In this document: in pieces, positions 30,971-43,064 of the stretch | Numbering within the stretch: position 1 is the stretch's first letter | How the letters are laid out: each line of letters starts with the position of its first letter | DNA from: Octopus sinensis | Lineage: Eukaryota | Direction of reading: 5' to 3' | Length of the DNA: 51,169 bases | Assembly (NCBI RefSeq): GCF_006345805.1 | Contig: NW_021834337.1 | Coordinates: 1-51,169, forward strand | The notes under the pieces: model-generated | Databases searched by the model: none | What the model was told of the DNA's origin: nothing | The model's input: only the letters and a program-made list of their open reading frames with translations | Program-made: the position numbers and the translations under genes

Positions 30971-31173
30971 ATTTGTTTATAGATTCACTACATTGAACAT
31001 TAAGCGCTGGGTGTTATTGTGTGTTGTATGCGCATGCGTTCATGCGTGAGTGTGTGTGTTTATGTGTGTGCATGTATGTGTGTGTGTTTGTGTCTGTGTG
31101 TCTGTGTGTCTGTGTATCTGTGCGCGCGTATGTAGTCCCATGCGTACAAAGGTGTAGAAACATTTCTTTGTAA

Positions 31174-31767
31174 GGCGGTGAGCTGGCAGAAATGTTAGCA
31201 CGCCGGGCGAAATGCTTAGCTGTATTTCGTCTGCCGTTACGTTCTGAGTTCAAATTCTGCCGTGGTCGACTTTGCCTTTCATCTTTTCGGAGTCGATAAA
31301 TTAAGTACCAGTTACGCACTGGGGTAGATGTAATCGACTTAATCCGTTAGTCTGTCCTTGTTTGTCCCCTCTGTGTTTAGCCCCTTGTGAGTAGTAAAGA
31401 AATAGGTATTTCGTCTGCCGCTACGTTCTGAGTTCAAATTCCACCGAGGTCGACTTTGCCTTTCATCTTTTCGGAGTCGATAAATTAAGTACCAGTTACG
31501 CACTGGGGTCGATGTAATCGACTTAATTTGTTAGTCTGTCCTTGTTTGTCCCCTCTGTGTTTAGCCCCTTGTGAGTAGTAAAGAAATAGGTATTTCGTCT
31601 GCCGCTACGTTCTGAGTTCAAATTCCACCGAGGTCGACTTTGCCTTTCATCTTTTCGGAGTCGATAAATTAAGTACCAGTTACGCACTGGGGTCGATATA
31701 ATCGACTTAATCCGTTCGTCTGTCCTTGTTTGTCCCCTCTGTGTGTCTTGTGGGCAGTGAAGAAACA
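31174..31767 (+). mobile_element. Family-B SINE trimer: one head plus three 184-bp body/tail units, 18-bp TSD
   Basis: Units start GTATTTCGTCTGCCG at 31222, 31406 and 31590. TSD AGAAACATTTCTTTGTAA at 31156-31173 and 31768-31785. Core GTCGACTTTGCCTTTCATC..TCGG.GTCGATAAATTAAGTACCAG resembles the Meta-SINE domain (from memory). Confidence 0.95.
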
Positions 31768-32481
31768 AGAAACATTTCTTTGTAATCACGGATAAAGTTA
31801 CATAAAAGATATACGAAGCTATTCTTTCTTTTCTCTCATTGTTGTTTAGCCCCAGGTCAACTTTGATCTAACGGACCAAAGTTATTCCGTCCGTAACAAT
31901 CATTTCAAAGATATCCAGGACTACATTATAGAATACTCCCTCCCCCCCCCGTCTTTAAAGACAGTTGCCGCAAATCACGGGCAATGTTGCAGCTATTTCT
32001 AGCAAGTCAAACAACCACATACAATTTTCCCCTATTGGCTCGTCTTCGATGTTTTTGTTTTTGATCTCGTTCTTCTTGCTCTTGTTGTACTCGTTTCGTT
32101 TCAATTCTCTCTATTTCCCTCACCCACCTTTTTCTTCCTTTCATTGATTTTCTTCTTTTGTTAGAAGCAATAAGGCGCAGCATTCCAAGGATCCTTCTCA
32201 CCATTGTCGTCCTGTTTGTTTATTCATTTTTTGAGGTGAGGTAAACAAATATACAACCAAATCTGTCAGTTCAAACAAAATAAATGTGGGAAAGAAGAAT
32301 CTATAAATATGAAGAGAAAAAAAGAAAGAAACCGAAAAAGCAAACTCAAATTTCTTTTACCTAACCTGAGGTGATCTCTGTTTAAAGTGCGTGGAGGCCA
32401 GCGGAGTATATTGTGAAAGTGCTGGCCGAGCATTTTACACTCGGAACAGATAGGGAATTTTCTTTATAATAACAGTTATAA

Positions 32482-32877
32482 TACTCTCTACTAAAGGCCT
32501 AAAGACCGCAATTTTGGTTGAGGGGACTGGTAAATTACATCCACCCCAGTATTTCACTGGTACTTATTTTATCGATCCCGAAAGGATGAAAGGGAAAATC
32601 GACCTCGGTGGACTTTAAACTCAGAACGTAAAAACGGACGAAATACCTATTTCTTTACTACCCACAAGGGGCTAAACACAGAGTGGACAAACAAGGACAG
32701 ACAAACGGATTAAGTCGATTACATCGATCCCAGTATTCATCTGGTACTTAATTTATCGATCCCGAAAGGATGAAAGGTAAAGTCGACCTCGGCGGACTTT
32801 AAACTCAGAACGTAAAAACGGACGAAATACCCTTAAACATTTCGTCCGCGTACTAAACATTCTGCCAGCTCACCGCC
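32482..32877 (-). mobile_element. Family-B SINE dimer (head, body, young tail, body, old tail)
   Basis: Two core copies joined by GACGAAATACC|TATTTCTTTACTACCCACAAG (plus strand, ~32637-32670). Confidence 0.9.
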
Positions 32878-32904
32878 TTTATGATGATGATGATGATAAC
32901 AATA

Positions 32905-34289: not shown

Positions 34290-34790
34290 ATGGCACCTTG
34301 GACAAGTGTATTCTACTATAGCTTTGGGCCGAACAAAGCTTTGTGAGTGAATATGGTTGATGGTATCTGAAAGAAGCCCGTCCTAGATATATACATATAT
34401 ATGGTTGTGTGTCTGTGTTTGTTTCCCCACCATCGCTTGACAACGGATATCGGTGTGGTTACGTCACCGTAACTTAGCGGTAAGAAAAAGAAACCTATAG
34501 AATAAGATAGTATAAGGCGGCGAGCTGGCAGGAACGTTAGCACGTCGGGCGAAATGCTTAGCGGTATTTTGTCTGCCGTTACGTTCTGAGTTCAAATTCC
34601 GCGCAGGTCGACTTTGCCTTTCATCCTTTTGGGGTCGATTAAATAATTACCAGTTACTCACTGGGGCTGATGTAATCGACTTAGTCCGTTTTTCTGTTCT
34701 TGTTTGTCCCCTCTATGTTTAGCCCCTTATGAGCAATAAAGAAATAAGAATAAGTATTAGACTTACAAAGAATAAATAATCGGGTTGATT
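34290..34790 (+). mobile_element. Family-C SINE interrupted by a family-B SINE
   Basis: GGCACCTTGGACAAGTG...GAAAGAAGCCCGTC...CGTAACTTAGCGG; resumes AGAATAAGTATTAGACTTACAAAGA after the insert. Confidence 0.8.
34516..34747 (+). mobile_element. Full-length young family-B SINE monomer, nested in family C
   Basis: GGCGGCGAGCTGGCAG...GTTCAAATTCC...TTAGCCCCTTATGAGCAATAAAGAAATA. Confidence 0.93.
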
Positions 34791-36275: not shown

Positions 36276-36794
36276 ATAGGTATATACACGCACGGGACGC
36301 ATGTATTCGGATAGATATACAGATATATTTGGAACTTAGCTAGCGGAGACCGCTAGATAGACGATAGATCGAAAGATCGATCGGTAGAGAGATAGATTAA
36401 TTGATAGATAGAGATTTTGTTATCTAGCAGACTAGGTAAATAGGAAGATTATTAATATCTAGCGCGCGATGGCTCCTAACACACACACACAGGCGCCTGT
36501 TTCTCTGCTTTTTTGCTCTGAAGCGACATCAGTTTCTAAGGCCTTTATACATTATTTAAATCCGCCTAACATGCATATGCGGTCGTTTTGATTATATTTG
36601 ATTATATATTCTCTCTGAATTCTTTGTTTTTCAATAAAGGAGGAAAATTACAAAATCCTTATTTCGGAGTGTGGGTGGGGTGGGGGTGGAAGCGTAAGTT
36701 TATTATTTTTTGCCCCTTTCTATCGTGTCTTGACATACAAAATAGGGGGTATGTAAAAATTTCCTTGTGTTAATAAATAAAATAATCCTCACAA

Positions 36795-37497
36795 GGCTTG
36801 AAATTATAACGACCCTGGTACTTAATTTATTGAACCCCGAATGATGAAAGGCAAAGTCGATCTCAGCGGAATTTGAACTCGGATCGTAAAGACATGAAAT
36901 ATTTAAGCCTTTTTGTCCGGCGTTCTAACGTTTCTGCCAATTCACCCGCCTTGATATTTGGTTTCAAATTTTGGCACAAGGCCAGCAATTTCGGGGAAGG
37001 AGCTAAGTCTATAAACTCATTGGTACATATTTTATCGACCCTAAAAGAATGAAAGGCAAGATCAACTTCGGGAAATTTGAACCCAGAACTTAATGACGGA
37101 CGAAATGTCGTTAAGCATTTCCTATTGTATGCACAAGGCCTGAAATTTTGGGGATGGGGGATAGTCGATTACATCGGCCCCAGTACCCAACTTATGTTAT
37201 CGACCCCGAAAGGATCGAAGAGGTAAAATCGACCTCGGTGTAATTTGAGATCAGAACGTAATGACAGATGAAATACCTATTTCTTTACTACCCACAGAGA
37301 GGACAAACACGGACAGACAAACGGATTCAGTCGATTACATCGACCCCAGTGCGTAACTGGTACTTAATTTATCGACCCCGGAAGGATGAAAGGCAAAGTC
37401 GACCTCGGCGGAATTTGAACTCAGAACGTAGCGGCAGACGAAATGCCACTAAGCATTTTGACCGGCATGTTATAACAATCCTGTCAGCTTGCCGCCT
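36795..37497 (-). mobile_element. Array of family-B SINE units, including a young head-less unit inside an old copy
   Basis: Four core copies; junction GAAATACC|TATTTCTTTACTACCCACA at ~37270-37296. Confidence 0.88.
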
Positions 37498-37504
37498 TAA
37501 TAAT

Positions 37505-42800: not shown

Positions 42801-42834
42801 TTATCTATCTAACCATCCATCTATCTATCTACCT

Positions 42835-43064
42835 ATTTCTTTATTACCCACAAGGGGCTAAACACAGAGGGGACGAATAAGGACACACAAACGGATTAAG
42901 TCGATTACATCGACCCCAGTGCGTAGCTGGAACTTAATTTCTCGACCCCGAAAGGATGAAAGGCAAAGTCGACCTCGGCGGAATTTGAACTCAGAGCGTA
43001 ACGACAGACGAAATACAGCTACGCATTTCGCCCGGCGTGCTAACGTTTCTGCCATATCGCCGCC
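42835..43064 (-). mobile_element. Full-length young family-B SINE monomer with 16-bp TSD
   Basis: Reverse complement of the 34516-type element; ATCTATCTATCTACCT at 42819-42834 and 43065-43080. Confidence 0.93.

What the first reader, a model, noticed from the sequence alone, without database searches (positions are those of the whole stretch)
37100..37497. Third occurrence: near-consensus head-less unit inserted in register into an old SINE (homing-like)
Seen (minus strand): diverged head, then near-consensus body with young tail, then AAAGAAATA|GGTATTTC, then diverged body with old tail. All junction-forming units end GTAGTAAAGAAATA, while monomers end (C/T)AATAAAGAAATA. Established: some non-LTR elements (e.g. 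Tx1 clade) insert site-specifically into other repeats. Inference: a promoter-incomplete sub-element that parasitises resident SINE heads, restoring an A+B box promoter on insertion. This is the best candidate for an undescribed system in the window.
Basis: partly seen in the sequence, partly recalled or inferred. Interest (0 to 1): 0.82.

Follow-up and report, generated by a model that had tools for sequence, protein, structure and literature searches.

The report
SINE that homes into its relatives
A young short retrotransposon in this animal genome has stacked tens of thousands of copies in register inside older copies of its own family at one fixed internal site, likely because its RNA ends in the same few letters as that site and so would guide its own insertion.

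Summary
The locus is real: old head, young body and tail, the junction AAAGAAATA|GGTATTTC, then an old body. The exact junction occurs 32,199 times in the genome, and about 59% of GTAGT tails sit at it.

Terminal units are old and mutually unrelated, the inserted bodies are young, and the target-site duplications round arrays are older than young insertions. These are therefore insertions into resident SINEs.

The head-less, promoter-stealing element is not supported. Of 105 lone copies, 91 start with a full head and 1 starts near position 50. Most array heads are donor-type.

Best model (0.6): transcripts of junction-bearing copies likely stop at the TATTT just past the junction. Their GGUAUUU end would prime LINE reverse transcription at position 50 of any relative. 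The cDNA would then pair with the resident head, leaving one head and a new junction, which makes a self-feeding loop. A second tail variant homes to position 17 (2,346 copies). An L1-group LINE shares the tail but never abuts GGTATTT.

The parts
37448..37498 (-). Old tRNA-like SINE head (SINE positions 1-49, A box), retained from the resident copy
   Evidence: 10/47 from young consensus; old alleles T21, A38 and C52
37278..37447 (-). Young B-subfamily unit: core from position 50 (B box) plus LINE-like tail ending GTAGTAAAGAAATA
   Evidence: core 6/119, tail 2/51, 14-nt tail deletion
37270..37286 (-). In-register junction AAAGAAATA|GGTATTTC, containing TATTT (putative leaky Pol III stop)
   Evidence: terminator efficiency in mammalian assays from PMC8466645; untested in this animal
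37121..37277 (-). Old resident body and A2-type tail
   Evidence: core 16/113, tail 9/49; 3' end abuts a further old SINE fragment, so no TSD is readable
32480..32879 (-). Second array: old head, unit repeating about 100 nt of the resident body before a young tail, junction 32648|32647, old A2 body
   Evidence: shared non-B alleles at SINE positions 63-146
31172..31767 (+). Trimer with young head, junctions 31404|31405 and 31588|31589, one TSD round the whole
   Evidence: units share private changes (local duplication)
42834..43064 (-). Lone full-length B copy (TAAT tail) inserted at a non-SINE GGTA site, with a TSD that starts at GGTA
34514..34746 (+). Lone full-length B copy with CAAT tail followed by AGAA (the variant that homes to position 17)

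Best explanation
A young, full-length SINE subfamily has inserted tens of thousands of times in register at position 50 of older relatives, likely because its RNA ends in GGUAUUU and would prime LINE reverse transcription there. Step 1 (inferred): a copy that already sits before GGTATTTC is transcribed by Pol III from its own head, and a share of transcripts stops at the TATTT just past the junction. Step 2 (pattern shown, chemistry inferred): this 3' end anneals to nicked DNA at GGTA-type sites, most often position 50 of resident SINEs, and an L1-group LINE enzyme that recognises the shared tail copies it. Step 3 (pattern shown, mechanism inferred from R2): the cDNA pairs with the resident head and partly or wholly overwrites it, so one head and the old outer TSD remain. 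Step 4 (inferred): each product is a new junction-bearing source, which closes a positive-feedback loop. Repeated hits and some local duplication lengthen arrays.
For: Age split: first cores are 0.037-0.044 diverged, like lone B (0.035); terminal cores are 0.077, 0.085 and 0.127 for A1, A2 and A3, near their lone copies (0.079, 0.111, 0.145). Terminals are star-like: 5/946, 0/561 and 0/351 pairs under 8%. Outer TSDs are older than B insertions: perfect in 3/31 arrays versus 15/34 lone B, p=0.002. Head allele T21 tracks the terminal family, 29/49 versus 11/69, p=1.4e-6. Lone G-starting GTAGT copies match GGTATTTC at 1.0.71.88.76.53.56.41.15, fading at the C after TATTT; their TSDs start at GGTA/GATA/GGTT and I saw no shared upstream motif in 16 pairs. 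Junctions onto old-type bodies read T at position 52 in 95 of 100 listed, although lone A2/A3 carry C in 20/35 and 39/51. In 4 of 4 arrays whose first unit keeps C52 the terminal has T52 (one poorly aligned). Each RNA end has its own site: CAAT tails are followed by AGA in 22 of 40 and resume at position 17; TA-site versus GGT-site lone copies with the same tail differ in haplotype, G159 20/20 versus 9/27, p=1.4e-6; 30 of 30 LINE tails continue with CATATC or a near variant, mostly into (TATC)n-type repeats, and none precedes GGTATTT. Only 8 of 1,012 GGTA and 5 of 35 GGTATTT sites in 178 kb of unselected DNA are SINE position 50, against 71 of 100 G-followed tails, some of them neighbours in one array. 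Ordinary two-head TSD insertions at position 50 exist but are rare, 3 of 144 arrays (5 flagged, one a position-17 event, one a neighbouring fragment). Precedents: R2 3' read-through annealing (PMC6795142), R2 cDNA/target heteroduplex giving precise 5' junctions (PMC3774820), TATTT terminating 42-50% (PMC8466645).
Against: No RNA end and no empty orthologous site was seen. Array TSD mismatch (0.105) lies between lone B (0.063) and lone old copies (0.167) and differs from both (p=0.04, 0.03). For young-headed A2/A3 arrays alone the TSD test is inconclusive (7 TSDs, p=0.32 and 0.22). The A38 head allele is not significant (p=0.08). TA-site copies are slightly older than GGT-site ones (0.041 versus 0.028, p=0.04), so a change of LINE enzyme over time could explain the haplotype link. 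A 7-nt match alone predicts about 14% SINE sites, not 60-70%, so extra factors are needed. The same TATTT lies in the first unit and must be read through. The LINE tail is only about 80% like the B tail, so the true partner may be a relative. Most loci come from contig C1 and were chosen by exact motifs.
Confidence: 0.6

Rival explanations
1. A Tx1-like LINE endonuclease with a loose preference for GGTATTT picks the site. The SINE RNA ends at AAAGAAATA, and the cDNA then pairs with the resident head as in the best model.
For: The partner candidate is an APE-RT-zf-RVT LINE of the L1 group. Tx1 families target other repeats and pass this on to SINEU (PMC4494074). TA-site and GGT-site copies differ slightly in age. 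A cleavage motif could also fade with distance.
Against: 0 LINE tails precede GGTATTT among several thousand exact tails. No upstream motif was seen. T52 appears at the junction where the first unit keeps C52 in 4 of 4 cases. Three tail or haplotype classes go to three different sites. Other LINE families were not surveyed.
Confidence: 0.17
2. The junction forms at the RNA stage: reverse transcription starts on an old-family SINE RNA, stops or is cut near position 50, and jumps (or the RNA is ligated) to the 3' end of a young RNA. The chimera inserts at a new site with one TSD.
For: One TSD brackets the array and heads are mostly young. Position 50 lies beside the loop of a long predicted head hairpin. 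RNA ligation and template-switch chimeras are known (U6/L1 passage in PMC11260458).
Against: Outer TSDs are older than B insertions. The head allele follows the terminal family. About 5 of 87 arrays repeat private changes of the terminal unit. Lone old copies show no young TSDs (A3 0/12 and A2 1/9 perfect), so old RNAs were not being mobilised then.
Confidence: 0.12
3. Arrays arise at the DNA level, by tandem duplication, unequal recombination or ectopic gene conversion from junction-bearing copies.
For: 20 of 100 adjacent B-unit pairs in longer arrays are under 3% apart versus 0.9% between arrays. Young alleles extend past position 63 in 13/33 A1 terminals. Unequal recombination is invoked for SINE-derived satellites (PMC10702118; PMC11481361).
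Against: Duplication cannot put a foreign young tail into an old copy. Most terminals return to resident sequence within about 13 nt of the junction (A1 20/33, A3 7/8 at position 63), too short for homologous recombination. Lone copies at unique GGTA sites with fresh TSDs show the same end signature.
Confidence: 0.06
4. One reading: a head-less, promoter-incomplete sub-element that can only be transcribed after it lands behind a resident head.
For: The finding's locus and the 32.5-32.9 kb array keep old heads. Some head sequence is resident-derived in part of the arrays.
Against: 91 of 105 lone copies are full-length and 1 of 105 starts at 46-54. Array heads are mostly donor-type, and some carry the B-specific GCGTAGCC head in front of A3 bodies, 8 of 27.
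Confidence: 0.03
5. A few composite (dimeric) master SINEs retrotransposed as a whole.
For: One TSD brackets each array. A1 terminals are over-represented (46 after junctions versus 13 lone).
Against: Terminals are mutually unrelated and older than first units.
Confidence: 0.02

Closest known systems
R2 site-specific retrotransposons (28S rDNA); PMC3774820 and PMC6795142, passages seen
   Same: Target sequence carried in the RNA: 3' read-through anneals to the target, upstream homology gives seamless 5' junctions, and a minority show short direct duplications instead.
   Different: R2 is autonomous, and its own endonuclease fixes one conserved gene target. Here a non-coding SINE targets its own dispersed family, about 41% of copies go elsewhere, and the site changes with the tail variant.
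SINEU-3 / Tx1-Mar in crocodilians; PMC4494074, passages seen
   Same: A SINE preferentially inserted in another repeat, with tandem copies from sequential insertion and a Tx1-type partner proposed.
   Different: The SINEU target is a different element (Mariner-N4_AMi) shared with the LINE, and tandems sandwich a TSD. Here the target is the SINE's own family, the LINE tested does not share it, and arrays are head-less inside with no internal TSD.
SINE-derived satellites of squamates (sSat; PMC10702118, parts 1, 3, 4 of 5 read) and bivalve TSD-(SINE)n-TSD arrays (PMC11481361, section 15 read)
   Same: Tandem partial SINE units with a complete head on one side, a complete tail on the other and one outer TSD.
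   Different: Those are ascribed to duplication or unequal recombination, and sSat are subtelomeric and homogenised. Here units are of different ages and subfamilies, arrays are short (124 of 173 sampled are dimers) and dispersed, and the ends carry a retrotransposition signature.
Head-to-tail multimers of B2, Dip and Ves SINEs; PMC8466645, passages seen
   Same: A large share of copies sits in same-family multimers; TATTT acts there as a moderate Pol III terminator.
   Different: Those multimers are of full-length SINEs (Dip, per PMC10702118) joined tail to head, not inserted in register at an internal site with loss of one head.

Membership tests
tRNA-derived SINE | A-box and B-box-like internal promoter in a tRNA-like head | tested here: inconclusive
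   A- and B-box-like motifs read by eye in the consensus (box consensus recalled). ARAGORN finds no tRNA and Rfam no relevant family.
tRNA-derived SINE | Short, dispersed, high copy number, TSDs | tested here: met
   217-233 nt consensus; 22 units in 178 kb of unselected DNA; TSD median 14-18 nt
tRNA-derived SINE | 3' tail shared with a LINE | tested here: met
   B tail versus LINE tail local score 55, shuffle maximum 29 of 1000; LINE ORF2 has APE, RT and zf-RVT domains
Head-less, promoter-incomplete parasitic sub-element | Mobilised RNA lacks the head (lone copies begin near position 50) | tested here: not met
   1 of 105 lone copies starts at 46-54; 91 start at 1-12
Tx1-clade endonuclease-directed targeting (SINEU/Tx1-Mar type) | Partner LINE inserts at the same target as the SINE | tested here: not met
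   0 matches for LINE tail plus GGTATTT; 30 of 30 tails continue with CATATC-like sequence. Only this LINE family was tested.
Tx1-clade endonuclease-directed targeting (SINEU/Tx1-Mar type) | Partner LINE groups with Tx1 in an RT tree | not tested
   Closest solved relative is human L1 ORF2p, E 6.5e-53. No Tx1 references were at hand; the Tx1 label is recalled from the architecture.
R2-like homology-assisted integration (works-like claim) | RNA 3' end carries target sequence | tested here: inconclusive
   Inferred from DNA signatures; no RNA data (one search listed no run)
R2-like homology-assisted integration (works-like claim) | Seamless 5' junctions by upstream homology, with a minority of direct duplications | tested here: met
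   3 of 144 arrays have two heads or a duplicated target at position 50; the rest have one head
SINE-derived satellite (sSat) | Long arrays of homogenised units from local amplification | tested here: not met
   124 of 173 arrays are dimers; only 20 of 100 adjacent pairs are near-identical
Named octopus SINEs (OK, OR1, OR2) and the CORE/Meta/V superfamilies | Sequence identity to the published consensus | not testable with these tools
   No Repbase or Dfam library here; Ohshima and Okada 1994 was seen only as a citation

The most novel reading that the evidence does not exclude
SINE target choice here is a heritable, RNA-encoded trait. The few bases a source copy reads through at its 3' end set where its daughters go, and a leaky Pol III stop inside the family's own promoter region turned one subfamily into a self-homing element that overwrote the heads of tens of thousands of older relatives. 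It would be a natural RNA-guided, seamless rewriting system run by a borrowed L1-group enzyme.
Probability: 0.45. Interest if true: 0.82.

Novelty: new variant of a known kind. Interest (0 to 1): 0.62.

Why it matters
Target specificity of non-LTR elements is usually credited to the LINE endonuclease. Here one SINE family with nearly the same tail goes to three site classes that follow its own 3' end, which makes the RNA-versus-endonuclease question testable on more than 30,000 natural events. It offers a retrotransposition route to SINE tandem arrays now ascribed to unequal recombination. It also means SINE dating and presence/absence markers in this genome are confounded, because old loci carry young heads. 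Seamless, homology-finished insertion by an L1-group enzyme is relevant to retrotransposon-based gene writing.

Tried and rejected
Rfam scan of 31.1-37.6 kb for a ribozyme or RNA family: only sub-threshold, microsatellite-driven hits. ARAGORN: nothing. A circular-RNA or ribozyme origin was considered because GAAATA/TATTTC across the junction is an inverted repeat and the tail can pair with it; lone copies are full-length, so it was dropped as the main route. A C57T change as the needed terminator: not enriched after junctions, 17/260 versus 24/241 in first units. Sequencing-run search with the word PACBIO: none was listed, so the empty-site and RNA-end tests were not run; this is no evidence either way. 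Exact look-up of the LINE ORF2: not in the collection. A first fuzzy-pattern script timed out with no output. could not show what follows LINE tails because trailing N were ignored. Earlier scan findings: nothing returned. Dropped before counts: one duplicate locus (C1_103198600) from then on, arrays whose head is itself a position-17 junction, low-complexity flanks in the TSD tests, and units of unassigned tail family.

Full report
Setting. The window is contig C10808 of G000, a 2.72-Gb genome. The repeat looks like an octopus tRNA-type SINE; that label is recalled and no call names the organism. I analysed 197 stretches (1.32 Mb including the window, nearly all from contig C1, chosen around exact motifs) holding 768 SINE units. 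To these I added 30 loci of a second junction type, 30 LINE-tail loci and 178 kb of unselected DNA from other contigs.

Observation. On the minus strand the locus reads: old head 37498-37448, young unit 37447-37278, junction, old A2 body and tail 37277 to about 37121. Divergences are 10/47 (head), 6/119 and 2/51 (young core and tail), and 16/113 and 9/49 (old core and tail). The junction is far beyond chance in the window (4 versus 0.02) and occurs exactly 32,199 times in the genome. GGGTAGTAAAGAAATA is followed by G 56,975 times and by another base 18,574 times. Of the first 100 G-followers 71 are junctions, and of the first 30 others 7 are, which gives about 59% overall.

The family. Four subfamilies share head (positions 1-49) and core (50-168) and differ in tail: B (core divergence 0.035), A1 (0.079), A2 (0.111) and A3 (0.145). 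B tails resume in SINE sequence at position 50 in 241 sampled cases, at 17-18 in 20, at an apparent 44 in 9 (not examined) and elsewhere in 5 (the sample is enriched for position 50).

Insertion into residents. First cores are young whatever the terminal family (0.037-0.044), while terminal cores are near the age of their own family and mutually unrelated. That rules out composite masters. One TSD brackets head and terminal tail. It is perfect in 3 of 31 old-terminal arrays against 15 of 34 lone B copies (p=0.002). Its mismatch without the first five bases, 0.105, lies between lone B (0.063) and lone old copies (0.167). The head allele T21 follows the terminal family (29/49 versus 11/69, p=1.4e-6), A38 only weakly (p=0.08). 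About 5 of 87 arrays repeat private changes of the terminal body in the first unit, including the 32.5-32.9 kb array of this window. Three of 144 arrays are ordinary TSD insertions at position 50 with the upstream target kept.

Not a head-less element. Of 105 lone B copies, 91 begin at positions 1-12 and one at 46-54. In 46 arrays with A2/A3 terminals the resident share, by divergence, is 0.30 at positions 3-13 (interval includes 0), 0.36 at 14-25, 0.06 at 26-37, 0.16 at 38-49 and about 0 in the core. The B-specific GCGTAGCC head stands before A3 bodies in 8 of 27 arrays. Donors therefore bring their own promoter and usually overwrite the resident head. The finding's locus is one of the minority that kept it.

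What picks the site. Lone GTAGT copies starting with G match GGTATTTC at 1.0.71.88.76.53.56.41 and .15 (34 copies). Their TSDs begin at that point, and I saw no shared upstream motif in 16 pairs; two pairs differ towards GGTA on the element side and two away from it. Junctions onto old-type bodies have T52 in 95 of the 100 listed (counted by hand) although lone A2 and A3 have C52 in 20/35 and 39/51. All 4 arrays whose first unit keeps C52 have T52 after the junction. Most terminals are resident-type again by position 63 (A1 20/33, A2 7/10, A3 7/8), with a minority of longer young tracts. The CAAT tail is followed by AGA in 22 of 40 cases and forms a second in-register junction at position 17, 2,346 exact copies. 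Lone copies in TA sites and in GGT/GAT sites share the tail but not the haplotype (G159 20/20 versus 9/27), though TA copies are slightly older (p=0.04). In unselected DNA only 8 of 1,012 GGTA and 5 of 35 GGTATTT sites are SINE position 50, so short microhomology alone does not explain a 60-70% share. Longer read-through RNAs or efficient homology-based completion must add to it (inference).

Partner. A LINE with a 1,149-aa frame (APE, RT, zf-RVT; nearest solved structure human L1 ORF2p) shares about 80% of its last 45-50 nt with the B tail (score 55, shuffle maximum 29). It has many copies identical over the searched stretch. Its tails continue with CATATC or a near variant in 30 of 30 loci, mostly into (TATC)n-type repeats, and none precedes GGTATTT. 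A closer partner may exist; Tx1 membership was not tested.

Mechanism. Shown: fixed register, age split, old outer TSD, mostly donor heads, element-type junction bases, and tail-specific sites. Inferred: a Pol III stop at the junction TATTT (42% and 50% in mammalian assays, with many ends before the last T for related terminators; PMC8466645 passages), priming by the GGUAUUU end (as for R2 read-through, PMC6795142 passages), completion by a cDNA/head heteroduplex (as for R2, PMC3774820 passages), and feedback because every product is a new source. I give this 0.6, endonuclease preference 0.17, RNA-stage chimeras 0.12, DNA-level duplication 0.06 as origin (it does explain about 20 of 100 adjacent pairs), the head-less element 0.03 and composite masters 0.02.

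Novelty. Nine paper searches listed no paper on this junction or on in-register self-homing of a SINE; I saw only listings for most hits. I read parts 1, 3 and 4 of 5 of PMC10702118, section 15 and passages of PMC11481361, and passages of PMC4494074, PMC13282606, PMC4824008 and PMC11260458. No supplements, Repbase or Dfam entries were seen, and repeat libraries there may already hold these arrays as consensus sequences. Ohshima and Okada 1994 was not read. Each chemical step has a precedent; I found no report of the self-targeting loop or of its scale. Verdict: new variant of a known kind, interest 0.62.

Noticed in passing
G000 genome-wide; L211-L240: Second in-register junction: B tails, mostly CAAT, resume at head position 17 (AAAGAAATA|AGAAWCGTTAGCA), 2,346 exact copies.
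   Followed up: partly
L301:1306-7507 (G000:C8:62.23 Mb): Very young L1-group LINE with an intact 1,149-aa frame, 98.9% identical to a second copy, ending in (TATC)n; probably recently active.
   Followed up: partly
SINE positions 45 and 50 (many loci): A major B lineage has GCGTAGC|CGTATTTC, which changes the first base of the homing site; it is common among lone copies (46/95) and could be partial self-immunity.
   Followed up: no
B tail, last 16 nt: The commonest junction-forming tail has AGTAAA where the CAAT/TAAT tails and the LINE have AATAAA; loss of a polyadenylation signal might leave the GGUAUUU end free (inference).
   Followed up: no
SINE positions about 30-63: The head folds into a long hairpin whose loop lies next to the insertion point, and GAAATA/TATTTC across the junction is a perfect inverted repeat.
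   Followed up: partly
C1 stretches at 14.31, 115.32 and 115.37 Mb: A1 and A2 tails ending GAAT or GGAT resume at head position about 19-23 in 3 cases, hinting at weaker self-homing in older subfamilies.
   Followed up: no
window 36790-37120: Two more old SINE pieces directly follow the array on the same strand; the first starts at about position 39 right after the A2 tail, possibly an older nested insertion.
   Followed up: no
G000:C1:13006832-13008481 and C1:30020858-30022548: A 53-bp satellite containing the B tail end (about 32 copies) and a 185-bp array of at least 10 CAAT junction units: SINE-derived satellites in the making.
   Followed up: no
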